64,000 nucleotides of DNA from Marinobacter sp. (lineage in GTDB: Bacteria; Pseudomonadota; Gammaproteobacteria; Pseudomonadales; Oleiphilaceae), in the NCBI RefSeq assembly GCF_052094685.1, contig NZ_JBQDKB010000011.1:505-64504 (forward strand). Direction: 5' to 3'. Made by a program: the position numbers and the translations under genes. The notes beneath the pieces were generated by a model. The model was not told where the DNA came from. It did no database searches and saw only the letters and a list, made by a program, of their open reading frames with translations. Within the stretch, counting starts at the first letter, position 1, and every line of letters starts with the position of its first letter. This document shows, in pieces, positions 43,337-57,402 of this stretch.

Positions 43337-44242
43337 TTGACCCCGGGATTCGAACTTATGCTCGATATTATTGCCATAGGAGACTACTACCAGGGCGTTG
43401 ACCCCGATCAGGGGCTGACCGATATGAGAGCCGCTGCCACGGAAGCGTGTTGCGAGCGCTTTCGACGCATTGACCGGTTCACTCAGATGGCACTGATTGG
43501 TTCGGCCCAATGTGTTGAAGGCGCTGAAGTTAAACCCGATGCGGGGTTGTACATCGGCTCTCGATTTGCCTCCTTGGGCAGCATCACGAAAGTTCATGAG
43601 CAGATGGTTGGTAGGGGTTCGGTGCCAAAGCCCGCCAATTTCATCAACACGCTGAGCAACTCGGCAGGCTATTTTGTTGCGCGCAACCTTGGGTTGCGCC
43701 ATCGTAACCTGTTTGTCTCACGGGGCGATGCCTCGATGGTTGCTGCACTGCAACTGGCGGCCATGGATGTAAGCACGGGCGCCGTATCTCAGGCATTAGT
43801 GGGGGTCGTGGAAGAGGCGGTTTTGCCGCTTGAACATCATCATTTTCGTCTCGGGGTGGAACCGGGTACGGAAATTGGCGAGGGCAGTCACTGGTTATTG
43901 GTGGCGCCTGAGGGCAGCGCCGATAGCCTTGCCTCGATAACAGACATGATTACTCTGGTAGACGAGCAGGCGCTGGATCAGTGGTTGAACCAGCTCGACC
44001 CGGCTACCGAGTACCGAGTGTCTCTGTCGCCCTGGACTCGGCAGCGAATAACCTCGAGCTGTTTGCAAAACCGGCCGCGGCTCAGAGGCTTTGATCCGGC
44101 GCTGGCCGTGTATCCGGGCTACGTTGCCGGTGCAACGATTCGCTATCTGCAGTCGGGTGAAGCCTCACCCCTGATTGTTATTGCCGCCGATACCGATGGC
44201 CGTTTTCACGCTATTGTTGCTTGGCCCAAGCGGGCGAATTGA
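43337..44242 (+). CDS. Chain-length-factor-like, catalytically inactive ketosynthase
   Basis: 'RRIDRFTQMAL', 'FINTLSNSAG'; no TAC catalytic motif; follows the KS gene by 1 bp. Confidence 0.65.
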   Translation: MTPGFELMLDIIAIGDYYQGVDPDQGLTDMRAAATEACCERFRRIDRFTQMALIGSAQCVEGAEVKPDAGLYIGSRFASLGSITKVHEQMVGRGSVPKPANFINTLSNSAGYFVARNLGLRHRNLFVSRGDASMVAALQLAAMDVSTGAVSQALVGVVEEAVLPLEHHHFRLGVEPGTEIGEGSHWLLVAPEGSADSLASITDMITLVDEQALDQWLNQLDPATEYRVSLSPWTRQRITSSCLQNRPRLRGFDPALAVYPGYVAGATIRYLQSGEASPLIVIAADTDGRFHAIVAWPKRAN

Positions 44243-44247
44243 AGGTG

Positions 44248-45240
44248 TCAGCGCAATTTGAGCTCCAGCAGTTGCCGGTAACCCTGTTGTTCCATATCGG
44301 CCACGGTGCGCAGTTGCGTGGCCAGCTTGCTGTAGTCCAGCGCAGTGCGTCCCTTGAGCATCTTCGCCGCATAAAGCGCAAAGCGGCGCCACTCATCACC
44401 GGCGTCGGTGAACTGGTCAGCGGCTTGCGCCAGGCCTTCATGAGAAAGCAGGTGTGCCGATTCCTGCAAGAACGAAGCGAACAGAAAACGGAAGCCGGCA
44501 CCGCCAGTGCCAATCTCTTCTTGCATGCGCACCATATGGCCGATAAGCAGCTTGTTGTAATGCTCATTGGCGGGCGACAGCTTATCCATGTGCCGGGCAA
44601 CGTGGCGGATGCCGCTCACACCGATAAACGGCAGGGGCGTGCGCGTCATCATATTAGCGGTTGAGCGAATGGCGCGGGGAATGGCTGCGGTTAAATCCGG
44701 TGTCTGCGTGATGGTTTCCGGGTAATAAATCAGCCCTTTCGGAGCCAACATCCCTTTGACGAACCTTGCCCGCTGAAGGGAAGCAACATCTGCCCGAACC
44801 GGCTGTTCGAACGTTGGGTCGCTGATCAGGTAGTCATCGCCCTCTTTACCGTAGGCCACCATGTTGTGAGCATTGAAGTGGAAGCGCATGTTTTCCGGGA
44901 AGTAGGGCAGCCAGTAAACCGATGCCTGCAGGCCTACCGGGGATCCTTGTTCCAGGTATTTGTCCAACGCTACTGTTCCATCTTTCGGGTTGCGGAAGCG
45001 CTGAAAATGGAAGCGTATGCCCAAACGCTTGCTTAGTCCGCGAATGATGCGGCCCGGAGGCATGCGGTAGGCCAGTAGCGGCATGCCGCCCACCCTCACC
45101 AACGGAATGTAGGCGTAGGTGAGGGCGGAGGACAGCCCGAATACCATGGGTTCGGACAGGTCGAGACCGTTATGGCGCAGCAGGGCTGCCACGGCACCGC
45201 TTTCGCAGTGGGCGGTTTGCTGGTGGTTGAAATCAGTCAT
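44248..45240 (-). CDS. BtrH N-terminal/DUF4872-type papain-fold protein
   Basis: 'HQQTAHCESG' (Cys) and 'FHFNAHNMV' (His); found in DAR/flexirubin-type clusters. Confidence 0.8.
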   Translation of the reverse strand: MTDFNHQQTAHCESGAVAALLRHNGLDLSEPMVFGLSSALTYAYIPLVRVGGMPLLAYRMPPGRIIRGLSKRLGIRFHFQRFRNPKDGTVALDKYLEQGSPVGLQASVYWLPYFPENMRFHFNAHNMVAYGKEGDDYLISDPTFEQPVRADVASLQRARFVKGMLAPKGLIYYPETITQTPDLTAAIPRAIRSTANMMTRTPLPFIGVSGIRHVARHMDKLSPANEHYNKLLIGHMVRMQEEIGTGGAGFRFLFASFLQESAHLLSHEGLAQAADQFTDAGDEWRRFALYAAKMLKGRTALDYSKLATQLRTVADMEQQGYRQLLELKLR

Positions 45241-45652
45241 TTTGTGGTGTGTCTTCCGGCGGGAGTGTGCGCAGTTGCTCGGCGGTCATCTGCAGCGCCT
45301 CTTCATAACGCCGCAGCTTGTGTGGTGCCAGGCCTTTGAAAATGGCCGGTTTCAGGTGCCGGCGGACCTGCCAGCGAAAAAAGCCTGTGGCCTGAGCCAG
45401 AATTGTCACATCCATCCGATGTGCGTACATGTGGTACTCGAGCACAGAGCAGAGCCGCAAATTCGCCCGCTCACGGGCCTCACGGGCAAAGCGGTTATAT
45501 TCTTCTACCGCCTGATCCAACACCACGTCCTCGGCTTCCCAGCCACTGGATAGCGCCGTGGTGTATTCGCCGTTGGCGTCTCGGGCATACAATCGTTTCT
45601 TTTGACCTTCGAACGATTGCGATTCGTCTTGGGGCACCTCGTCCAGCTTCAT
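45233..45652 (-). CDS. Conserved hypothetical protein of darB clusters
   Basis: 'MKLDEVPQD...SSGWEAE...LEYHM...RMD...LAQATG..RWQVRRHLKP'; overlaps both neighbours. Confidence 0.75.
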   Translation of the reverse strand: MKLDEVPQDESQSFEGQKKRLYARDANGEYTTALSSGWEAEDVVLDQAVEEYNRFAREARERANLRLCSVLEYHMYAHRMDVTILAQATGFFRWQVRRHLKPAIFKGLAPHKLRRYEEALQMTAEQLRTLPPEDTPQND

Positions 45653-46806
45653 GAGAGGCCCTGATGATCACAGACAGTTAATTGCATAAAAGATGAGGCG
45701 AAACGGCCACTTTCAGGCACCCAGCAAAGCAGCTTCTGACCGGGTTCCAGTTTGCCAGACTGGTACAGTTCCTCAAGCATGATGTAGATCGATGCAGAGC
45801 CTGTGTTGCCTTTGTGGGATAAATTAGTGGCCCAGCGTTCGAATGGAATATCCAGCCCGCCTTTCTTTAGGCCCTCATAGGCCCGCTCGCGGAAGTAGCC
45901 AGACGAATAATGCGGAAGAAACCAATCGATATCATCGCCAGACAGTTGATATTTTTCGGTTATTTCGGGCAGATACTGCTCGATAGTGGTCGAAACAATG
46001 TGTTCGTTCAAAAGGCGAACATCTTGCTTGACGGCAAAGATCGACTCCTTCAGCCAAGTTTCGTGAGACAGATCTTTCCAGCTTTCCAGGCTGCCGTCTT
46101 CGCGCTTGCGAGCGCCCGCGTACATGCAGGCATCCAGCTGATTGGCAAAGGAGCGAAGTTCGATCCAGTCGATTCTCAATGACAGGCCTTCTTTGGCTGG
46201 AGTGGGCTCAAGGGCAACCGCACCTGCGCCGTCTGACAGCATCCAGCGCAAGAAATCTTTATCAAAGGCCACTTCCGGCTTTTTTTCAAGGCTGTCTAAC
46301 GAGGCAACAGTCTCTGGCTCGAACAACTTGCCGCGCATGACCGCCGATGCCACTTCCGACCCCGTACTCACCACTCGCTGATGCTGACCTGTGGCAACTG
46401 ACATCCAGCCGTACTTAAGTGCCGACATTCCGGCCAGGCAGACACCAGCGGTTGCTGCTACCTCGCAAGGAGGGGAGGCCAGTTCGCCGTGAACCATAAC
46501 CGCATGGCTGGGCATCAACTGGTCGGGCAGGCTGGTTCCGCAAACTAGGCAATCCATGGCTTTGCTGTATGGGTCGCCCAGTGCGCGAATAGCTTCGGCA
46601 GTCAGTTCCGCGTTGGTATGCGTGCGCTCGCCGGTCTTCGGATCCACTGCGTAATACCGGTTTTTGATCTTGTTACTTTTCAGGATCACCCGCCGTGCTC
46701 GTGAAGGCTGAGCGCCAGCCTGGCCGAGCACCGATTCTATGTCGTCGTTACCAACAGGTTCATTGGGCAGTGCTGTGGCGATAGCGGTAATGTAAACGTT
46801 TTGCAT
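45649..46806 (-). CDS. darB: DarB/StlD-type KAS III (beta-ketoacyl-ACP synthase III)
   Basis: 'LMPSHAVMVHGEL', 'AGVCLAG', 'FLRWMLSDGAGA', 'HYSS', 'KGNTGSAS', 'VPESGRF'. Confidence 0.88.
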   Translation of the reverse strand: MQNVYITAIATALPNEPVGNDDIESVLGQAGAQPSRARRVILKSNKIKNRYYAVDPKTGERTHTNAELTAEAIRALGDPYSKAMDCLVCGTSLPDQLMPSHAVMVHGELASPPCEVAATAGVCLAGMSALKYGWMSVATGQHQRVVSTGSEVASAVMRGKLFEPETVASLDSLEKKPEVAFDKDFLRWMLSDGAGAVALEPTPAKEGLSLRIDWIELRSFANQLDACMYAGARKREDGSLESWKDLSHETWLKESIFAVKQDVRLLNEHIVSTTIEQYLPEITEKYQLSGDDIDWFLPHYSSGYFRERAYEGLKKGGLDIPFERWATNLSHKGNTGSASIYIMLEELYQSGKLEPGQKLLCWVPESGRFASSFMQLTVCDHQGLS

Positions 46807-46861
46807 GTATTAAACAGCTCGGTAACTGGCCGGGGCCGGAAAATTAAAAAAACCTAGGGTC

Positions 46862-47782
46862 TTAATCACCTGAAGGCGCACTGAAATAAGCTTTTTGCCG
46901 CGCAATGCGCTTGCGTGTAAATGGCGAAAGCAAGCGCTTGATTAGCATGCCTGCCGGAACCACTGTCAGAATCATGGCCACCAGGAAAACCGAATAAAAC
47001 ACCAGCACCGGTTTGCGTTGCCAAGCTCCTCGAGGCCCGAGTGCCCGAAGCAGCCGGCCCCAAATGCGAAACGCTCGCTTGCCAGTTCTTTCACTGGAAA
47101 TCAGCCCCTCGTTGATACGCACGGCTGCCAGCCCCCGGAGCATGTCTGGAGATACTTTTTCTTTAACTCTCAACCGGTCGCGAATACGTCGGCCAAAGCG
47201 TTCACTGTCGACCATGGCCTTCTCTGAAACGCCGGCCTTTGGGATTAGGCCACCCCAGAACGGCCCTTTGCGCCCAGTGAGCACCCAAAGAGGCGTGGCA
47301 AAAAAGCTCAGCAGCGAGCCTGCTTCATCCACCATGGCCACATTGCCCACCAGGCTGGCATTCAGCTCCGTTAGCTTCTGCTTCATATCTTCTTGGGCCA
47401 TCAGCCACATATTTCGGCAGGCAATCAGCGTAACCACGGGCGTGTTGTCAAGCAACTGCCTGGCAACCGGATGCTGAAGAAACGCCGTCATTGGAAGAGC
47501 AGGGGAAAGAAACCAAACCTGATACGCCAGAATGACAAGATCAAAATTCTCATCACCAGACACGCCCGGCGCTTCAATAGGGGGCGGGTCCAGATAGACA
47601 GATTCGGGAAACGTATCGAGAAATGTCAGAAAGGGCCACGGAAACGGGAAATCCTCTACCGGCTTGATGTTTTCGAATGTCACCGAAACGTCATCCGATT
47701 CGACCAGTGGTCGCGTAAATTCCCGCACGACATTATCGAGCTGCCCGCTCTGGGAATAGTGTACGACCAGAACCTTCTTCAT
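46862..47782 (-). CDS. darA: Dialkylresorcinol condensing enzyme
   Basis: 'VHYSQSGQL', 'FPFPW', 'YQVWFLSP', 'CRNMWLMAQ', 'RFGRRI'; ATG at 47782. Confidence 0.9.
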   Translation of the reverse strand: MKKVLVVHYSQSGQLDNVVREFTRPLVESDDVSVTFENIKPVEDFPFPWPFLTFLDTFPESVYLDPPPIEAPGVSGDENFDLVILAYQVWFLSPALPMTAFLQHPVARQLLDNTPVVTLIACRNMWLMAQEDMKQKLTELNASLVGNVAMVDEAGSLLSFFATPLWVLTGRKGPFWGGLIPKAGVSEKAMVDSERFGRRIRDRLRVKEKVSPDMLRGLAAVRINEGLISSERTGKRAFRIWGRLLRALGPRGAWQRKPVLVFYSVFLVAMILTVVPAGMLIKRLLSPFTRKRIARQKAYFSAPSGD

Positions 47783-47909
47783 TGTTAGTTTCCAGAATTC
47801 TGTGCCAGAATCGCGTGAATTAAAATTCTTCACGCCCTTCATATTGTTTGGGCGCGCGACTATAACACAGGACAATTTTCATCTGAATCCTCCCGGTAAA
47901 GTTGAAGTC

Positions 47910-48650
47910 ATGCAATTTGATTTTGAAGTATCTGGGGCCCATCGGGCCTTCCCCGGCCATTTCCCAGGCGCCCCGGTTGTACCGGCGGTGGTATTAATTG
48001 AGTACATGACACGGGGGCTGGAGCAGACAACCGGAAAGCCGGTAACCAACATTCGACAGCTGCGCCTGCTGAGCCTGATAGCGCCTGACAAGCGGGTTGA
48101 CGTTGAATGCCAGGAGAAAACACCCGACTCCTGGCGACTAACGTGCACCGTCGCCGGCGAGCCTGTAGCGAAAGCCATATTCAGCAGCGAGCAACTTCAA
48201 ACCGGCACAGATAGGCACCTGCAGTGTGACCAGCCGAGATATCAATCTGCCCAAGCGGTTTATGATCGGTTACCCCACGCGGATGCTATGCAACTGATCG
48301 AGAAATTTGCTCTTATTGATAATGGTGCCCAAACCCGGGCAACCATCACCAACAATCACCCGCTTGCTGATACACATGGCCTGCCTGCGTGGGCAGCACT
48401 GGAATACGCCGCACAACTGATGGCATGCCGAAAACTCAGCATGGGCGGCGAGCCAATGAGCAGGGCAGTCATCGTGCTGGTGCGTGCGTTGCGTCGCTAT
48501 ACGGTTGAATCAATGCCGGCGGAAGGAGAGCTGATGGTGGAAGTTACTGAGAGAGTCGCGCAGCCAGGCGCGGTTCAGTGCGCGTTCACCGCAGCTTACG
48601 GTGAGGAGCGGATTGCAGCCGGCGAGTTTACCGTTGTCAGCGGCGTTTAA
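47910..48650 (+). CDS. Double hot-dog dehydratase (ApeI-like plus ApeP-like fusion)
   Basis: N half 'FPGHFPGAPVVPAV'; C half 'LPHADAMQLIE...LPAWAALEYAAQ'. Confidence 0.75.
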   Translation: MQFDFEVSGAHRAFPGHFPGAPVVPAVVLIEYMTRGLEQTTGKPVTNIRQLRLLSLIAPDKRVDVECQEKTPDSWRLTCTVAGEPVAKAIFSSEQLQTGTDRHLQCDQPRYQSAQAVYDRLPHADAMQLIEKFALIDNGAQTRATITNNHPLADTHGLPAWAALEYAAQLMACRKLSMGGEPMSRAVIVLVRALRRYTVESMPAEGELMVEVTERVAQPGAVQCAFTAAYGEERIAAGEFTVVSGV

Positions 48651-49777: not shown

Positions 49778-51805
49778 ATGAAACCTGCCTTCAAAAAAGC
49801 TGCTTTATCAATTGCTGTCGCTTCAACACTTGCTCTCGCCGGTTGTGGCGGTTCGTCTGGCTCTGGGTCGACACCGCCACCCGCTAATACTTCTTCAGCA
49901 CCTGCATCGTCTGTAAGTGGTGCCGCAGTAAAAGGAATTGTTAGTAATGCCGATGTAACGGCTTATGACTTGGATAATGGCAACGCAGTCGTAGGCGCTG
50001 CGACCACTGATCAGAATGGTGAGTACGAAATCAGCCTTGCTGACAATTACAGCGGTGGCCCCCTCAAAATCATTGTAACGCCTAGTGCTGCATCCAAAAT
50101 GGTCTGTGATGCTGTCTCCAGCTGCGGAAGCGTTGCTAAAGGCGAGGAGCTCGATTTACCTCAGGGGTTCAGCCTTTCGACGATCACCGCCAACACCAAA
50201 GGCCAAGATAAAGTTAGCGCGCCAGTAACTGCCTGGACGACGATTGCGGCCAAACGTGCTGAAAAGCTGATTTCTGAAGGCAAATCTACTGCAGGCGCCG
50301 CAGGCATCGCCAATGCAGAAGTTTCCCGTGCAGCTGGTTTTGATATTGAGCGCACTAAGGCAAAGAGCATTACGTCAGCGGATATCAGCACGGCGTCTGG
50401 CGACCAGCGCAAAGCGGCTTTAATGAATGCGGTTGTAGCAGAGGCGATTTTCAAGCCTGCCCCAGCAGGTGGTAATGCAGATTTTGTTGCAAATCTTGAA
50501 CAGCTGTCTACCGCATTTGAAGACGGTGTATTTGGATCTGAAGACACCAGTAGCGAAGAAAACTCGCTCAAGCAGGCCCTGGCAGATGCCGCGAGCGATG
50601 TGGCTCGCGATCCCGAACTATTAACTTCCTTTGCAAAAGAAGTTAATAGTGTTGCAGAACGCCAAGTGGCGCTTGAGGAAGATAAGCCTTTGGCTGTGAA
50701 GGATCAGGTTAGTCAGAATGAAAGCGACTACACGGGTGACCGTGGGCAGAAGATTAACAGCTTCAAGAATTTTGTTGCTGACGTGCGAGCATGGGCACGG
50801 GCTATTGAAGGGCAGGATAGCGATGCTTTGGCAGCTGCAGTAAAGGTTGACCAGACAACGGTAAAAAATATCTTCAAGTCCACTACAGAAGGGCAGTTTG
50901 AATTTGCCGGGCTGGTGATTGAATCCGCGTTTGGCTTTTTAGCGGATAATCCGGAAGAAGCCAGCGCTCTGATCAAGAATGGTGGTAGCCGCACCGTCGA
51001 TGTGCTGGACGAGACAGATCAGAAAGTCGGGGAAATAGCTGTCGGCTTTTCTGGCTACCAAGGTGGCGTTCAGGTTCGACTTCAAGGTGCCGCTACTGAT
51101 TCGAACAACAATACGCTAGCTCCTCTTGATTTGACACTTCGTACCGATATCCCTCTGGATCTGGTGGCTAATCCTTACGAAGACGGCTCTGTGGATTTGG
51201 TTGTTAACAGGCTGGCGGCGCAAAGTAACATTAGTGTGTCTGGCACCCTGGGTGAATCTTTGATTGAGTTTAAAGATACAAAGCTGAATCTCGCTTTGAA
51301 CCAGCCATGGAATGCCTCATCAGCGGGCGGCCTGTTTGATGATCCAAACCTGGATGCCGAATTTAACAGCCGCTTTGTGTCTGCGCAATTCACCGGTGGC
51401 CTTGCCGTAACAAGCGTTGAAGGCGATCAGTTTGAAGGAAACGTAGATCTGAAATTGGTGCGGCTTGGCGATGCAGGTGCGGGGCGCAACTCTGCGCTGA
51501 CTCAAAGCCGGGTAGCATTGAAGAGTTTTGGTATGAATGGCGCATTCAAATCAGCGGATTTAAGTCATCAGTTCGAGGCCAGCGCCAAGCTGAACATCCG
51601 CAATGCCGACAAGTTCGATGTGGTTGCCTGGGCCGATTACAGCCGGCAGGCGCGCCCTGTGATGGTGAGTGTGCCTAACTCTGATGTGGGAGGGTTAATT
51701 CCCCAATTGGCAGAGCAACCTGTGATCGGGTTTGCAGAAGTTTATCCAGATTACGGTATGTCGGATCAGTTCAGCGTTTGGGGGGGGGGCATTTTACGCC
51801 ACTGA
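49778..51805 (+). CDS. Large lipoprotein, N-terminal part (frame shifts at the G10 tract)
   Basis: RBS GGAG; lipobox LAGC followed by a Gly/Ser linker; stops 5 codons after the G tract. Confidence 0.8.
   Translation: MKPAFKKAALSIAVASTLALAGCGGSSGSGSTPPPANTSSAPASSVSGAAVKGIVSNADVTAYDLDNGNAVVGAATTDQNGEYEISLADNYSGGPLKIIVTPSAASKMVCDAVSSCGSVAKGEELDLPQGFSLSTITANTKGQDKVSAPVTAWTTIAAKRAEKLISEGKSTAGAAGIANAEVSRAAGFDIERTKAKSITSADISTASGDQRKAALMNAVVAEAIFKPAPAGGNADFVANLEQLSTAFEDGVFGSEDTSSEENSLKQALADAASDVARDPELLTSFAKEVNSVAERQVALEEDKPLAVKDQVSQNESDYTGDRGQKINSFKNFVADVRAWARAIEGQDSDALAAAVKVDQTTVKNIFKSTTEGQFEFAGLVIESAFGFLADNPEEASALIKNGGSRTVDVLDETDQKVGEIAVGFSGYQGGVQVRLQGAATDSNNNTLAPLDLTLRTDIPLDLVANPYEDGSVDLVVNRLAAQSNISVSGTLGESLIEFKDTKLNLALNQPWNASSAGGLFDDPNLDAEFNSRFVSAQFTGGLAVTSVEGDQFEGNVDLKLVRLGDAGAGRNSALTQSRVALKSFGMNGAFKSADLSHQFEASAKLNIRNADKFDVVAWADYSRQARPVMVSVPNSDVGGLIPQLAEQPVIGFAEVYPDYGMSDQFSVWGGGILRH
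51780..51789 (+). repeat. G10 homopolymer at the frameshift junction
   Basis: TTT-GGGGGGGGGG-CATTTTAC; removing one G joins the two ORFs. Confidence 0.95.
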
Positions 51806-53030
51806 AGGCGCTCTCGCTTGGAATAGGTACGACCTGAATAAGCAGCAGATTGAGACCGTAAAAACGGCACTGATCGCTAAGCTGTCAGGCGTCTATGCCA
51901 GTGGGTTTACAGTGGTGCCGCAGGGAGCTGTTCCTGAGACTGGCGGGCAAAGCTATTCAGTTGATGCACTTTTGACAGGAGATGGGTTTTACGCAAATGG
52001 TGATTCCTGGGGCCCTTCTTTTGAAAATGTCGTTGCGCCAGGCATCCCTGATGGAAGGGTTTATTCTTCTAACTCTGGAGTTCCTGAGCTGATAGGGAAT
52101 GTTTGGAGTTGGAGTGGTGCGAAAGTATTCACTTTGAATATGAGCCCCGAGCTTGCTAGTGAGGTTGTTGCGGCGATAAATCCGGCTGAATTCCTTGTGG
52201 CTGGTGCCGAGCCTGAATCTTTCGGTATCAACTCTTATAATGGTGAGTCTTACGGATACATTGACTACTCTGTGCCTGTCACTCGCGCGCGTTTTGACAA
52301 CTGTGTTGCCGACCCAGGGGTGATGCTGAAAGCGTACCAGGGATATACAGAATACGGAGTAGCAGGAGACGATGCCGTCATTGACTGTGCTCATGCAACT
52401 TTGGCGTATGAACCAGTTGATAGAGCCGTTGAGTCAGCAGCCGCAGATCAGGCGGAAGCTGCGGGTGTTGGCAAACTCAAATCGGGCCTGGATGTAAACA
52501 TAAGAGAGGGTGTTTCGTCCTCCTTGTGGAATGCTCGTGTTACCTTTGGCGAGCTTGCTGACAACAAACCGGCGCAGCTCGAGTTGATGACTGAATTCCC
52601 AGATCTGGAAACAGCAGACCACTTTCTCGAGGGATCAATTGTTTTGAGTGCGCGCGTTCAGATTCCGGGGTCACAGGACGCTCAGGAAGTTCAGGAAGCT
52701 AACGTGACATTGACGCTGGACCGCTCCAGCCAGAAAGGTGGAGACGTTGAGGCTAATGTAAGCTGGAACGGAGGCAACTACACGGCAGTTGTAAGCTCGG
52801 AGAACTTTGAGGATTTGCAAGGAACAGATGTTATTACTGCGGAGTTTTCTAATGCTGAAGGTTACCGTCTTACGTTGGCCGGCTCCTTCGATGAGAATAA
52901 AAAGCTGACTAATTTAACAGGTGATGCCTACGTTAAGGATACGGACATTGGTAACGTGGAATATCGCAAAGGTAGGCCGGTTATTACCTACCCGAATGGC
53001 ACAGTAACCGAGTTTGAGACTCTGTTCTGA
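51780..53030 (+). CDS. Large lipoprotein, C-terminal part (read only if the tract is G9 or G12)
   Basis: Open frame continues from the tract to the TGA at 53028-53030; no convincing RBS or start of its own. Confidence 0.7.
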   Translation, partial: GGGAFYATEGALAWNRYDLNKQQIETVKTALIAKLSGVYASGFTVVPQGAVPETGGQSYSVDALLTGDGFYANGDSWGPSFENVVAPGIPDGRVYSSNSGVPELIGNVWSWSGAKVFTLNMSPELASEVVAAINPAEFLVAGAEPESFGINSYNGESYGYIDYSVPVTRARFDNCVADPGVMLKAYQGYTEYGVAGDDAVIDCAHATLAYEPVDRAVESAAADQAEAAGVGKLKSGLDVNIREGVSSSLWNARVTFGELADNKPAQLELMTEFPDLETADHFLEGSIVLSARVQIPGSQDAQEVQEANVTLTLDRSSQKGGDVEANVSWNGGNYTAVVSSENFEDLQGTDVITAEFSNAEGYRLTLAGSFDENKKLTNLTGDAYVKDTDIGNVEYRKGRPVITYPNGTVTEFETLF

Positions 53031-54103
53031 TGACAAAACCGGAAAACCGGAAAAAAGGGTGGGGCTTTGGCCCCGCCTTTTTTTTCATCGCAGCAATTAT
53101 GACCACCTCTTCTGCGGCCAGTTACGAGTTATTCGGGCGAACTGAAAATCAGTTTCTCAGCGAGCCTGAGCCAATCCGAGCGAGCCTCAACGACTGGGGC
53201 TCGGAGTTTTCACGTGGCGAGCGCCAGTGGGCAATCAGTCATTTCGAACTGGGCGTACGCTACCAAGGGATAGAAGTGTCCGTGCAGCAGCGTGGTTTAG
53301 TGGATTTGCGCATGAATGCGGAGCTTGCGGAATACTGGGGGCGGATTGACGCCGGTTTACCTCTTGATGAGGGAGCTCAAATACCGGCGCAATTGAGCGT
53401 TGATGGCTTCTCTGCCCGTGCACTGCGTTTGGGCTATCTTTTTACCTGGGATCGAGGGGCTCTAACCGTTGGTGCAGCCGTACTTGACGCAAAACATCTG
53501 GTGGCAGGTGATCTGGCAGGTGATATCCAAGTAACGAATTCGAGCGATTACGTGTTCAGCGCTCAGGTTGATTACAGTTACTACAGGGATGTGCTTTTTA
53601 ATCGCCCCATAGCAAACGAGCCGGTAGGTATGGGCTGGGCGGGAGATCTTCGTGCCCATTGGCAGCTTGATGAGAGCTGGCTCTTCAGCTTAAAGGTCGA
53701 TGACATCTTTGCTCGAATCCGGTGGGAAGACGCGCCCTACACAATTGCCAGAGGCGATTCTGATATCAAGCCTGGTGACGGCAGTAGCCTTGGCAGCGGC
53801 ATTGAGGGCTATCGTGACGTATCCCAAAGGCTTGATCCTCGGTATCAGATAGCTACTGTACTTTCGGAAGGCCCTTGGTCAGCACACCTACAAGGCCAGT
53901 ATCAGTTCGGCTACGGCTTCGTTGGTTTCGGTGCAGGGTACCGCTATGCCAGCGGACTTGCGCTAAAGGGACTGTACTGGCCGAAATACAAAACGATTGG
54001 TGTTGAAGCCGAATATAAGGGCTGGCGGGCCGCGCTAGCCGCAGATCAGTTGGAATGGCGCAAAGTACAGTCGCTGAGTTTTAGTTTGTCGTATGGGTAC
54101 TAA
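53030..54103 (+). CDS. Outer membrane beta-barrel protein of unknown family
   Basis: TGATG overlap with the upstream gene; signal-peptide-like N terminus; alternating beta strands; C-terminal 'FSLSYGY'. Confidence 0.75.
   Translation: MTKPENRKKGWGFGPAFFFIAAIMTTSSAASYELFGRTENQFLSEPEPIRASLNDWGSEFSRGERQWAISHFELGVRYQGIEVSVQQRGLVDLRMNAELAEYWGRIDAGLPLDEGAQIPAQLSVDGFSARALRLGYLFTWDRGALTVGAAVLDAKHLVAGDLAGDIQVTNSSDYVFSAQVDYSYYRDVLFNRPIANEPVGMGWAGDLRAHWQLDESWLFSLKVDDIFARIRWEDAPYTIARGDSDIKPGDGSSLGSGIEGYRDVSQRLDPRYQIATVLSEGPWSAHLQGQYQFGYGFVGFGAGYRYASGLALKGLYWPKYKTIGVEAEYKGWRAALAADQLEWRKVQSLSFSLSYGY
53051..53085 (+). terminator. Intrinsic terminator embedded in the 5' end of the barrel gene
   Basis: GGGTGGGGC-tttg-GCCCCGCCT followed by a T8 run. 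Confidence 0.7.
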
Positions 54104-55322: not shown

Positions 55323-55883
55323 TTACCGAAGAAGGTTTATTCTGTCATTCACAAAATTGTATCTCGGTTGCTGTACCCATTGGTTGTTTGAGCGAGTGGG
55401 GAGTTTGTGGACGTTTTCTTCGTAAACCACCAGTTCACCATCCAATTCCTGCAGCCAGAAATCGAGATCGTAGGTTTTATCTGGGTCGTTAATGGCGGCG
55501 AAGTTGGTGCAAGCAAAATAGAATTGGCCGTCGATCACGCGAACCGGGTCGTGGATGATCTGAAACCGCAGTTCCAGATTTTGGCTAGTGCGTGGGTCGG
55601 TGATTTCGAAAACGCCAGGGTTGCCGAGAGCCGTGCGTTGGCTGATGTGATCGCGCATCGCCGCTTTGATCTGGCTGGTTGTAAAGCGTTTGTTGCTTGA
55701 TGATTCTGGTGTGGCGAGGGTTTTTGGCTCATCGCTACTCTGCGTAACACTCTGATTCTTCTGGTTGGTGGTTTCGGTTACATCGCTTTTGTCGCTACCG
55801 CAGCGTGCAAGGAGTAGTAGCAGAATGATGGGTAAGGCGATCCAGGCTTTGTGGCGGAGCCACTCTGTTCCAGAGGCTTGCAT
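55323..55883 (-). CDS. Exported or lipid-anchored hypothetical protein
   Basis: Hydrophobic leader with 'LARC'; S/T-rich linker; compact domain 'IHDPVR...YFACTNF...YDLDFWL...VHK...PRY'. Confidence 0.7.
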   Translation of the reverse strand: MQASGTEWLRHKAWIALPIILLLLLARCGSDKSDVTETTNQKNQSVTQSSDEPKTLATPESSSNKRFTTSQIKAAMRDHISQRTALGNPGVFEITDPRTSQNLELRFQIIHDPVRVIDGQFYFACTNFAAINDPDKTYDLDFWLQELDGELVVYEENVHKLPTRSNNQWVQQPRYNFVNDRINLLR

Positions 55884-56037: not shown

Positions 56038-57402
56038 TCAGCCTTTCCCCAGCTTCATCGCCTCAAATTCATCCTCAAAGAAAAACTTCTCTTCACCAAA
56101 CGCCGGCTCCAGCTCGTGCAACCAGGTGGCCGTTTCGCTGTACTTGGCAAAGAACGGGCGCTGCACCCAGTCTGGGTTGCGGCCTTGCAAAAAGCGCAAC
56201 ACAAACACCTTCTCGCCGTGAATCTCGGCAATGCCTTGAATCTCCACCTTGCCGGGGCCAGCGCTCATGCTGGGGCCGCGGGCGGTGCGGGCCAGGCCGC
56301 TGACTTTCTTCATGGCTTCGCGATAAATTTCGAAGGCTTGCGCTAGCGGTATTTCAAAGTAGTTCTTGGCGCCGGTATCACGCTCCACAAACATGTAGTA
56401 GGGGATAATGCCCAGCTGTACTTCTTTCTTCCACAGTTTGGCCCAGGCATCGGCATCGTCGTTAACGTGCTTAATCAGCGGGCCTTGCGCGCGAATTTCA
56501 GCACCTGTGGCACGGATACGGCGAATCGCCTCTTCCGAAATCTCAGTGGTGATTTCTTGCCAGTGGTTGTAGTGCGCCATGATCGCTACGTGCTTGCCGG
56601 CATCTACCAGGCGAGCAAACAGGTCAATCAGCTCGTCTGCATCTTTGTCGGTTACAAAGCGGTATGGCCAAAAGGTGAGCGCCTTGGTGCCAATGCGGAT
56701 GGTTTGAAGGTGGTCAAACTCTGGCTGCAACAAAGGCTCAAGGTACTGAACCAGGCTCTTGGTTTTCATCACCATGGGGTCGCCACCGGTCACCAACAGG
56801 TCGGTTACTTCGGTGTGTTCCTGCAGGTAGCCGTGCAGCTTGCTAGCCTCGGTGCTCGACATCTTCAGGTCTTTATCACCCACAAACTGCGCCCAGCGAA
56901 AACAGAAGGTGCAATAAGAGTGGCAGGTTTGGCCTTGGGCTGGGAAAAACAACACGGTTTCGCGGTACTTGTGTTGCACGCCGTCTAGCACCTCGCCTTC
57001 CAGCTCTGGCATGTTCATTTCCATTTGGCCGGCTGGGTGCGGGTTCAGCTCATCGCGAATCTCTTTGGCGACTGCTTGAATCTCTTTTTTCTCGGCGCCT
57101 TCGCGGTGCATTTTGGCCATGCGGTCAAAGTGCTCGTCTTTGAGCATACCTTTTTGTGGGAAAACCAACTGATAGATGGGGTCGTTGGGTACTTTGTCCC
57201 AGTTGATCAGTTCGTTGATTACATACTCGTTTACTCGAAAGGGCAATACGCTGGCCACTACCTTCATTTCAAACAGGGTGTCTTCGGGCAGGCTCTGGAT
57301 AATCTCAATCTTATCTAGCTGGCGGTCGGTATAAACCTTAAAGCGCCGTTCTTCGAACTCGGTGGTAGGAATTCGGTTAGGAAAGGTGACGATTGAATTC
57401 AT
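56038..57402 (-). CDS. KamA-family radical SAM aminomutase (lysine 2,3-aminomutase-like)
   Basis: 'HKYRETVL', CxxxCxxC 'CHSYCTFC', 'TGGDP', 'IRIGT', 'IIPYYMF', 'GPSMSAGPGK'. Confidence 0.88.
   Translation of the reverse strand: MNSIVTFPNRIPTTEFEERRFKVYTDRQLDKIEIIQSLPEDTLFEMKVVASVLPFRVNEYVINELINWDKVPNDPIYQLVFPQKGMLKDEHFDRMAKMHREGAEKKEIQAVAKEIRDELNPHPAGQMEMNMPELEGEVLDGVQHKYRETVLFFPAQGQTCHSYCTFCFRWAQFVGDKDLKMSSTEASKLHGYLQEHTEVTDLLVTGGDPMVMKTKSLVQYLEPLLQPEFDHLQTIRIGTKALTFWPYRFVTDKDADELIDLFARLVDAGKHVAIMAHYNHWQEITTEISEEAIRRIRATGAEIRAQGPLIKHVNDDADAWAKLWKKEVQLGIIPYYMFVERDTGAKNYFEIPLAQAFEIYREAMKKVSGLARTARGPSMSAGPGKVEIQGIAEIHGEKVFVLRFLQGRNPDWVQRPFFAKYSETATWLHELEPAFGEEKFFFEDEFEAMKLGKG

What the first reader, a model, noticed from the sequence alone, without database searches (positions are those of the whole stretch)
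49778..54103. Lipoprotein plus translationally coupled beta-barrel: candidate dedicated surface-display pair
A Gly/Ser-tethered, beta-rich ~1080-aa lipoprotein is followed by a TGATG overlap and a ~357-aa outer-membrane barrel of no family I can name. Cargo lipoproteins encoded next to a barrel translocon are established for Slam/type XI secretion, but this barrel lacks Slam's TPR region. It may be an undescribed export or anchoring system for an adhesin or S-layer-like protein. The central part around the G tract (about 51630-52480) is aromatic-rich and reads like an exchangeable insert. All functional claims here are inference.
Basis: inference. Interest (0 to 1): 0.62.

Follow-up and report, generated by a model that had tools for sequence, protein, structure and literature searches.

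The report
Frameshifted lipoprotein with partner barrel
A Marinobacter carries a conserved but unstudied two-gene outer-membrane unit (a large acidic lipoprotein followed by its own barrel protein), and in this strain the lipoprotein gene is knocked out of frame by a run of ten G's whose length differs between near-identical strains.

Summary
The gene pair is real and tightly linked. All 32 related loci I inspected, across many families of the order, have a large lipoprotein gene directly upstream of the barrel gene. In the Marinobacter loci read at the junction, the lipoprotein stop overlaps the barrel start (TGATG).

- **Broken gene.** The "~1080-aa lipoprotein" is not one ORF here. A G10 tract (51780-51789) splits it into a 675-aa ORF and a 418-codon open frame; G9 would be in frame. 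Public assemblies of near-identical strains carry G10 (seven, counting the window) or G8 (two). A 94%-identical strain has an intact 1083-aa gene with G6ATA.
- **Barrel family.** The barrel is a divergent Pfam DUF5723-type barrel of about 16 strands, with no Slam (DUF560/TPR) match.
- **Terminator.** A terminator-like hairpin sits just after the lipoprotein stop, here inside the barrel's signal-peptide codons. A strict scan finds one in 25 of 33 loci against 2 of 592 control windows.

The variable, aromatic-rich centre is confirmed and is absent from shorter homologues.

I think the barrel most likely docks or exports the lipoprotein, the lipoprotein is made in excess, and the G tract currently keeps it OFF. 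Function is inferred, not shown. No read-level test was possible.

The parts
49778..51805 (+). Lipoprotein gene, N-terminal part (675-aa ORF): signal peptide with lipobox LALAG-C23 (Cys codon 49844-49846), Gly/Ser/Pro tether, Ig-like beta-sandwich, helical region, beta-rich region. Ends at a TGA 14 nt after the G tract.
51780..51789 (+). G10 homopolymer causing a +1 frameshift. G9 or G12 would be in frame. Near-identical strains carry G8 or G10; a 94%-identical strain has G6ATA (in frame).
51774..53030 (+). Lipoprotein gene, C-terminal part: a 418-codon open frame (frame 0) with no start or signal of its own. It holds the variable insert and the conserved C-terminal beta domain ending ...PVITYPNGTVTEFETLF.
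51728..52566 (+). Variable, aromatic-rich central insert (residues about 651-930 of the intact relative). Absent from the 730-896-aa homologues.
53028..53032 (+). TGATG: the lipoprotein stop overlaps the barrel start by one base.
53047..53085 (+). Terminator-like hairpin (A-run, GGGTGGGGC-TTTG-GCCCCGCC, T8) lying in codons 7-19 of the barrel gene (K-K-G-W-G-F-G-P-A-F-F-F).
53030..54103 (+). Outer-membrane beta-barrel gene (357 aa). Signal peptide about residues 1-30 (read by eye, not predicted by a tool). About 16 strands, several 24-28 residues long. Divergent DUF5723.

Best explanation
This is a conserved two-gene outer-membrane module that has not been characterised. Gene 1 encodes a large acidic (pI about 4.1-4.4) lipoprotein. 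Its parts in order are: lipid anchor, flexible Gly/Ser tether, Ig-like beta-sandwich, helical region, beta-rich body, an optional aromatic-rich insert, and a highly conserved C-terminal beta domain ending in ...FE[ST]LF. Gene 2 encodes a DUF5723-type barrel of about 16 strands, some of them long enough to protrude beyond the membrane.

Shown:
- The two genes always travel together.
- Their stop and start overlap (TGATG) in the Marinobacter loci read at the junction.
- A terminator-like hairpin is kept between the two coding regions.

Inferred:
- The hairpin stops most transcripts after the lipoprotein gene, so the barrel is made in smaller amounts than the lipoprotein.
- The barrel is the lipoprotein's dedicated partner. 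It recognises the conserved C-terminal domain and/or the tether, and either docks the lipoprotein on the cell surface or passes it across the outer membrane.

In this strain the lipoprotein gene carries a hypermutable G tract now at G10, one base too long. Translation therefore stops after residue 675, and the translational coupling that feeds the barrel gene is lost as well. Near-identical populations carry G8 or G10, so the tract slips readily. The most likely reading is a slipped-strand ON/OFF switch caught OFF in every population sampled. A very recent inactivation is the main alternative.
For: **Pair and linkage**
- Intact orthologues are 1049-1105 aa and are followed by a 331-365-aa barrel gene with a one-base overlap.
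- Linkage holds in 13/13, 5/5 and 14/14 loci. These loci show lipobox-plus-linker starts and a conserved C-terminal motif; a lipobox was detected in at least 11 of the last 14.
- The module is sparse: 12/191 species of the genus and 32/351 genomes of the order, in 23/145 genera.

**Barrel**
- AF2 gives a barrel at pLDDT 79.6.
- 14 of 25 orthologues match DUF5723, best E 6e-8.
- 541 cluster representatives match at E<=1e-3; nearly all of the best 150 listed are about 330-410 aa.
- The best structural matches are FadL/TodX-type barrels and a barrel chain of the F. johnsoniae BAM complex, all at TM <=0.45.

**Hairpin**
- Folding energy is -36.6 kcal/mol, z -5.3.
- It is kept at nucleotide level in all 11 other loci examined, mostly Marinobacter, whose barrels are as little as 40-55% identical to the window's.
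- Hairpins with different stem sequences occupy the same place in other families: 25/33 loci against 2/592 control windows.

**G tract**
- G10 is found in the window, five Logan assemblies and a second NCBI MAG. G8 is found in two runs from different studies.
- Contigs identical over 6-7 kb differ only in tract length. The SNP at 55844 is shared by one G8 and one G10 sample.
- dN/dS against the intact relative is 0.236 both before and after the frameshift, and 0.085 for the barrel. There are no further stops.
Against: - No in-frame G9 or G12 allele was seen in any of the nine assemblies of this lineage. Reversible switching is therefore not shown, and plain loss of function fits equally well at this divergence.
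- G10 is also present in a strain 0.25% diverged, so the OFF state may be fairly stable.
- Surface exposure, complex formation and termination efficiency are all untested.
- The lipoprotein has no detectable fold or family relative.
- The barrel's matches to solved structures are generic (TM <=0.45).
- A terminator between the genes would also fit two separately regulated genes in those relatives where they do not overlap.
- Long G/C tracts are not clearly enriched in this genome relative to other draft genomes of the genus.
- One MAG shows clustered miscalls next to the tract, so poly-G does disturb sequencing here.
Confidence: 0.55

Rival explanations
1. Recent pseudogene. The module has simply been lost in this food-associated lineage. 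The G tract arose by chance, slipped out of frame, and now drifts (G8, G10) without any functional ON state being used.
For: - All nine assemblies of the lineage are out of frame, and no G9 or G12 was seen.
- G10 persists in a strain 0.25% diverged.
- The module is dispensable: it is absent from 179 of 191 species of the genus.
Against: - The 418-codon downstream frame and the barrel gene have no further lesions.
- dN/dS is the same on both sides of the frameshift (0.236), and the barrel is under strong constraint at 0.085. However, the divergence since the frameshift is too small for this to be decisive.
- Both observed alleles lie exactly one step either side of the in-frame length.
Confidence: 0.27
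2. Nutrient-capture unit. The barrel is a FadL/TodX-like channel for a hydrophobic or other substrate. The lipoprotein is its substrate-binding surface or periplasmic partner (SusD/E-like logic), not a cargo that the barrel exports.
For: - The best structural matches of the barrel are TodX, TbuX, FadL and CymD.
- The hosts are marine hydrocarbon or polysaccharide degraders: Marinobacter, Cellvibrionaceae, Marinimicrobium.
Against: - TM scores are only 0.33-0.45.
- No FadL-family Pfam match.
- No N-terminal hatch is evident in the model.
- About 16 strands rather than 14.
- A terminator that lowers channel expression relative to the binding protein is not what an uptake unit obviously needs.
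Confidence: 0.12
3. Recoding. Full-length lipoprotein is still made from G10 (and from G8), through RNA polymerase slippage on the G run or ribosomal frameshifting, so the gene is expressed at a low level rather than switched off.
For: - Both alleles are one nucleotide from the in-frame length.
- Long homopolymers are known slippage sites (general knowledge; not tested here).
Against: - G10 needs a +1 or -2 shift and G8 needs a -1 or +2 shift, so one ribosomal mechanism cannot serve both.
- No stimulatory structure was looked for or found.
- Orthologues need no recoding.
Confidence: 0.05
4. Sequencing or assembly artefact. The true tract is G9 and the gene is intact.
For: One MAG has 12 clustered mismatches in the 70 nt next to the tract, which shows that this poly-G disturbs base calling.
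Against: - Seven independent assemblies agree on G10 and two on G8, from several studies.
- None shows G9 or G11, which is not the pattern expected from random homopolymer miscalls around a true G9.
Confidence: 0.03

Closest known systems
Pfam DUF5723 (PF18990), an uncharacterised outer-membrane barrel family
   Same: - Orthologues of the barrel match the model: 14 of 25, best E 6e-8.
- A modelled DUF5723 protein of Brachyspira is described as a 16-strand barrel with strands 3-12 elongated on the outside (bioRxiv 10.1101/2025.01.03.631275). This resembles the long strands in my model.
   Different: - The window's own copy scores 19.7 bits, below the 26.8-bit cut-off.
- The family has no known function, so membership explains nothing mechanistically.
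BamG-BamH of the Bacteroidota BAM complex (PMC12611786, PMC12578637; PDB 9n2d)
   Same: - It pairs an outer-membrane barrel with a surface lipoprotein. The barrel's extended strands form an extracellular pillar on which the lipoprotein docks, and the lipoprotein's lipidated tail wraps around the barrel.
- A 390-residue barrel chain of 9n2d is among the better structural matches: TM 0.40, rmsd 8.5.
   Different: - BamG is a 14-strand FadL-family barrel bound to BamA. It is essential and universal in Bacteroidota.
- The barrel here has about 16 strands and is present in only 6% of Marinobacter species.
- It sits in a module that is broken in this strain, so it is an accessory module, not core BAM.
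- Association with BamA was not tested.
Slam / type XI secretion with its surface-lipoprotein cargo (TbpB, HpuA, NilC)
   Same: A lipoprotein gene lies next to a dedicated barrel, and a conserved C-terminal beta domain on the lipoprotein could serve as the recognition element (general knowledge; analogy only).
   Different: - The barrel has no DUF560 and no periplasmic TPR domain.
- Gene order and sizes differ.
- No sequence or fold relationship was found.
hpuAB of Neisseria meningitidis (poly-G phase variation; PMC3786947)
   Same: HpuAB expression is switched by length changes of a poly-G tract inside the reading frame (PMC3786947 abstract). That hpuAB is a lipoprotein-then-barrel operon is from general knowledge.
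   Different: - HpuB is a TonB-dependent receptor.
- In Neisseria both ON and OFF states are documented. Here only OFF lengths (G8, G10) have been seen.
T9SS cargo with a type-B C-terminal domain and an adjacent PorP/SprF-like barrel (e.g. SprB-SprF)
   Same: A large cell-surface protein with a conserved C-terminal domain is encoded next to its own barrel of about 350 aa (general knowledge). PorV (6h3i_F) appears among the weak structural matches.
   Different: - The T9SS is not known in this group (general knowledge; not searched for here).
- The cargo here is a lipoprotein.
- TM to PorV is only 0.26.

Membership tests
Pfam DUF5723 (PF18990) | Whole-protein score at or above the gathering cut-off (26.8 bits) | tested here: inconclusive
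   The window's barrel scores 19.7 bits, E 7e-4, below the cut-off. 14 of 25 orthologues match, best E 6e-8, and several carry PF18990 in precomputed annotation.
Slam / type XI secretion barrel | DUF560 14-strand barrel preceded by a periplasmic TPR domain | tested here: not met
   No DUF560 or TPR match at E<=1. The AF2 model has no N-terminal helical domain.
FadL/TodX family | 14-strand barrel with an N-terminal hatch, and a family HMM match | tested here: not met
   No FadL-family Pfam hit. Foldseek TM is 0.33-0.45 to TodX/FadL. DSSP lists about 16 strands and no hatch.
BamG-BamH (Bacteroidota BAM extension) | Universal and essential in its clade, and physically attached to BamA | tested here: not met
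   Present in 12/191 species of the genus and 32/351 genomes of the order, and frameshifted here. Attachment to BamA is not testable with these tools.
Slipped-strand phase-variable (contingency) locus | Homopolymer of 8 or more bases inside the reading frame | tested here: met
   G10 at 51780-51789 inside the lipoprotein gene.
Slipped-strand phase-variable (contingency) locus | Tract length differs between otherwise near-identical isolates | tested here: met
   G8 against G10 in contigs identical over 6-7 kb, and not tied to the SNP background.
Slipped-strand phase-variable (contingency) locus | Both ON and OFF lengths occur within one lineage (reversibility) | tested here: not met
   Nine assemblies show only G8 and G10. 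The in-frame state appears only as G6ATA in a 94%-identical strain.
Slipped-strand phase-variable (contingency) locus | Length heterogeneity within a population (read level) | not testable with these tools
One Logan contig starts 7 nt after the tract, which is only suggestive.
Intrinsic (Rho-independent) terminator | GC-rich hairpin immediately followed by a U run | tested here: met
   9-bp GC stem, tetraloop and T8, -36.6 kcal/mol, z -5.3. Conserved in position in 25/33 loci against 2/592 controls. Termination itself was not measured.

The most novel reading that the evidence does not exclude
DUF5723-type barrels are dedicated translocons or anchors for their cognate lipoproteins. This would be a lipoprotein surface-display route distinct from Slam/T11SS and also present in Proteobacteria. 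A built-in terminator would set a high cargo-to-barrel ratio, and in this lineage a poly-G switch would turn the displayed protein on and off, for example to escape phage or grazers.
Probability: 0.2. Interest if true: 0.8.

Novelty: new variant of a known kind. Interest (0 to 1): 0.55.

Why it matters
How Gram-negative bacteria place lipoproteins on their surface is only partly understood. The known routes are Slam, BAM-assisted barrel-lipoprotein complexes, and the Bacteroidota systems.

This pair of a lipoprotein and a DUF5723 barrel stays strictly linked. It recurs across many gammaproteobacterial families, carries a conserved internal terminator, and has a swappable central module. That makes it a clean and genetically simple candidate for another such route.

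The natural G8/G10 alleles and the intact allele in close relatives provide ready-made OFF and ON strains for testing it. The pair would also be a documented case of homopolymer-driven gene switching, or gene loss, in an environmental, food-associated marine bacterium rather than a host-adapted pathogen.

Tried and rejected
- **AupA/AupB alkane-uptake pair of Marinobacter:** AupA is FadL-like and AupB is an inner-membrane protein, so this is a different system.
- **Slam:** no DUF560 or TPR match.
- **NCBIfam:** nothing.
- **PDB sequence-profile searches:** nothing for the barrel or the lipoprotein.
- **Foldseek of the lipoprotein model:** no match at E<=1e-3; only vague hits to large beta-sheet proteins.
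- **Pfam on 14 lipoprotein homologues:** only sub-threshold Ig-like hits.
- **Rfam:** nothing above gathering. A weak PrrB/RsmZ hit reflects the hairpin.
- **Internal repeats:** none meaningful.
- **JGI metagenome pattern scan for further tract alleles:** 0 hits.
- **Genome-wide excess of long G/C runs as evidence for a contingency-locus lifestyle:** this genome has 9 tracts of 10 or more. Other draft genomes of the genus show comparable counts, and some are clearly artefactual, so this is not used as evidence.
- **Sigma-70 promoter scan:** no better than shuffled sequence.


Full report
**1. What is in the sequence**

The window has three long open frames on the + strand between 49778 and 54103, not two.

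- Frame 2 runs 49778-51805 (675 aa). It begins MKPAFKKAALSIAVASTLALAG-C23, a lipoprotein signal with lipobox, followed by a Gly/Ser/Pro-rich tether.
- It ends 14 nt after a run of ten G at 51780-51789.
- The protein continues without any stop in frame 0 from 51774 to 53030 (418 codons).
- Counting codons across the tract shows that G9 or G12 would join the two frames (...SVWGGAFYATEG...). G10 is one base too long.
- The stop of the second frame overlaps the ATG of a 357-aa ORF (TGATG, 53028-53032; ORF 53030-54103).

The "~1080-aa lipoprotein" exists here only if one reads through a frameshift.

**2. The lipoprotein is a single ORF in relatives**

A database search with the 675-aa part finds proteins of 1049-1105 aa at 31-75% identity. 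One is a 1075-aa protein of Marinobacter salexigens.

At the tract position M. salexigens reads WGNAFYAT. A 94%-identical strain reads WGDTFYAT, encoded by GGGGGGATA. The in-frame G9 reading of the window (WGGAFYAT) has exactly the same length as both.

**3. The tract length is polymorphic among near-identical strains**

The 90%-identity protein cluster holds differently truncated versions of this protein from several public assemblies. Reading the DNA of each gave the following.

| State | Where found |
|---|---|
| G10 | the window, five Logan assemblies (ERR12057366, ERR12057356, SRR25395076, SRR25394962, SRR25400310) and a second NCBI MAG |
| G8 | ERR12057302 and SRR12103073 |
| G6ATA (intact 1083-aa gene) | SRR25400290 and SRR25399851 |

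- Contigs identical over 6-7 kb differ only in tract length.
- The single SNP at 55844 is shared by one G8 and one G10 sample, so tract length is not tied to the SNP background.
- No G9, G11 or G12 allele was seen.
- One contig (ERR12057304) begins 7 nt after the tract.
- A JGI metagenome scan for more alleles found nothing.

One caution applies. The second MAG is identical to the window over 8 kb except for 12 transversion-rich mismatches, all within the 70 nt next to the tract. These look like base-calling damage beside a poly-G. Miscalls around a true G9 should mostly give G9 itself, with some one-step lengths. Seven consistent G10 and two consistent G8 with no G9 is not that pattern, so I take the alleles as real.

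**4. No decay behind the frameshift**

Compared with the intact 94% relative, dN/dS is 0.236 for the part before the tract and 0.236 for the part after it. It is 0.085 for the barrel. There are no further stops or indels.

This fits either a reversible switch or a very recent inactivation. The divergence is too small to separate them.

**5. The pair is strictly linked**

- The three orthologous loci first fetched show lipoprotein then barrel with the same one-base overlap.
- A scan of one genome per species found 13 loci (Marinobacter spp., Cellvibrionaceae MAGs, Marinimicrobium). Every one has the lipoprotein ORF ending at the barrel start, with the C-terminus ...P[VM]I[TV]YPNG..T.FE[ST]LF.
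- Distant barrels at about 25% identity in four other families are again preceded by 765-964-aa lipoproteins. These have a lipobox, a G/S linker, an "SGTASKGII" start and a C-terminal "DG[ST]FE[ST]L" motif.
- Fourteen further loci drawn from other families gave 14/14 with a 761-1012-aa co-oriented ORF just upstream. At least 11 have a recognisable lipobox and linker.

The module is sparse. It is found in 12 of 191 species of the genus and 32 of 351 genomes of the order, in 23 of 145 genera. It occurs once in this genome.

**6. The barrel**

- Pfam gives only DUF5723 at 19.7 bits, below the 26.8-bit cut-off. However, 14 of 25 orthologues match it, best E 6e-8.
- An exhaustive HMMER search finds 541 cluster representatives at E<=1e-3. 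Nearly all of the best 150 listed are about 330-410 aa.
- The AF2 model (pLDDT 79.6, pTM 0.76) is an all-beta barrel with about 16 strands by DSSP. Three of them are 24-28 residues long, far longer than a membrane span, and there is one short helix.
- Foldseek against the PDB gives only generic barrel matches: TodX/TbuX/FadL, OmpG, a 390-residue barrel chain of the F. johnsoniae BAM complex (TM 0.40), and PorV. All are at TM <=0.45.
- There is no sequence-profile match to any solved structure.
- A preprint describes a modelled DUF5723 protein as a 16-strand barrel with elongated extracellular strands, which agrees with this model.

**7. The lipoprotein**

- It has no significant Pfam, NCBIfam or PDB match.
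- The AF2 model of the intact relative (pLDDT 73) shows a disordered tether (1-41), a beta-sandwich (45-147), a helical region (150-400) and a long beta-rich remainder. Foldseek finds nothing at E<=1e-3.
- The protein is acidic, pI 4.1-4.4.
- Residues about 651-930 are the least conserved, hold most of the indels, and are aromatic-rich at 11.8% FWY.
- Homologues of 730-896 aa match only residues about 5-640 and about 930-1083, so they lack this centre.
- The G tract lies at the insert's upstream edge.
- The last 33 residues are the most conserved part of the protein.

**8. A conserved terminator between the genes**

Codons 7-19 of the barrel gene (KKGWGFGPAFFF) are also an A-run, a 9-bp GC stem, a TTTG loop and a T8 run. 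The fold is -36.6 kcal/mol, z -5.3, with 0 of 200 shuffles as stable.

- The same hairpin is kept almost base for base in all 11 other loci examined, mostly Marinobacter, whose barrels are as little as 40-55% identical to the window's.
- It recurs in Cellvibrionaceae.
- In distant pairs whose genes do not overlap, a hairpin plus T-run lies in the intergenic gap.
- With a strict scanner, 25 of 33 loci have such a site 15-60 nt after the lipoprotein stop, against 2 of 592 control windows. The stems differ in sequence between families, so it is the structure and position that are conserved.

I infer that most transcripts end after the lipoprotein gene and the barrel is made by read-through. This gives more lipoprotein than barrel, as expected for a cargo and its partner rather than a strict 1:1 machine. 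Termination was not measured.

**9. Mechanism, with its status**

Shown:
- the gene pair and its conservation;
- the overlap and the hairpin;
- the frameshift and the allele series.

Inferred:
- outer-membrane targeting of the lipoprotein;
- docking on, or passage through, the barrel;
- surface exposure, suggested by the variable insert, the acidic composition, the homopolymer switch and the analogy with BamG-BamH, where a barrel's extended strands carry a surface lipoprotein;
- loss of barrel translation in the OFF state, because coupling is lost.

My odds for the state of the gene:

| Reading | Odds |
|---|---|
| reversible switch caught OFF | about 0.55 |
| recent pseudogene | about 0.27 |
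| recoding | about 0.05 |
| artefact | about 0.03 |

A nutrient-uptake role for the pair (about 0.12) concerns function rather than gene state, so it is not a competitor in this list.

**10. Comparison and novelty**

The barrel is a divergent DUF5723-like protein, a family with no known function. It is not a Slam, FadL or BamG family member on the features I could test.

Functionally the nearest described things are:
- BamG-BamH;
- Slam with its surface lipoproteins;
- T9SS cargo with PorP-like barrels;
- for the switch, the poly-G-controlled hpuAB operon.

Notes from other agents of this scan report similar pairs of a lipoprotein and a DUF5723 or FadL-like barrel in other phyla. I used these only as leads.

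I rate the finding as a new variant of a known kind: a real, uncharacterised module with useful natural alleles, and no demonstrated function.

Noticed in passing
window 53047-53085: The barrel's signal-peptide codons (KKGWGFGPAFFF) double as a canonical terminator hairpin. The peptide motif WGFGPAFFF is conserved in orthologues, probably because of the RNA or DNA structure rather than the peptide.
   Followed up: yes
L056 (GCA_052104795.1) against window 51707-51777: A second NCBI MAG is identical over 8 kb except for 12 transversion-rich mismatches clustered in the 70 nt upstream of the G tract. This is probably sequencing or assembly damage next to a poly-G, and it yields a spurious protein variant (P0020).
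   Followed up: partly
genome contigs C68:9539-9548, C1:22415-22426, C14:59268-59493, C28:13671-13711: Other long G/C runs occur in the genome. There is a C10 exactly between a GGAG and the ATG of a 570-aa ORF, a C12 where two overlapping minus-strand frames (209 and 196 aa) meet, three C13-C14 runs within 230 nt, and a G9 plus G11 pair. Their variability was not examined.
   Followed up: no
window 43337-48650 against L008 and L010: Upstream of the thioredoxin-TPR gene this genome has a ketosynthase / BtrH-like / ApeI-ApeP-like cluster where M. salexigens and another relative carry lon and a marR-type gene.
   Followed up: no
window about 53760-53800 (barrel residues about 245-256): The window's barrel lacks six residues (consensus YAVFAP) present in nearly all aligned orthologues and differs around them. 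This falls in a low-confidence loop after a long strand, probably an extracellular tip.
   Followed up: no
window 56038-57402 (- strand): A 454-aa protein with no Pfam match lies next to aceE in this genome and in all three Marinobacter-type loci first fetched. It is conserved and uncharacterised.
   Followed up: no
window 53039-53050: A small CCGG-AAAA-CCGG hairpin just before the terminator is also kept in many orthologues. A weak PrrB/RsmZ-like Rfam hit (23.8 bits against a cut-off of 44) covers 52970-53084.
   Followed up: no
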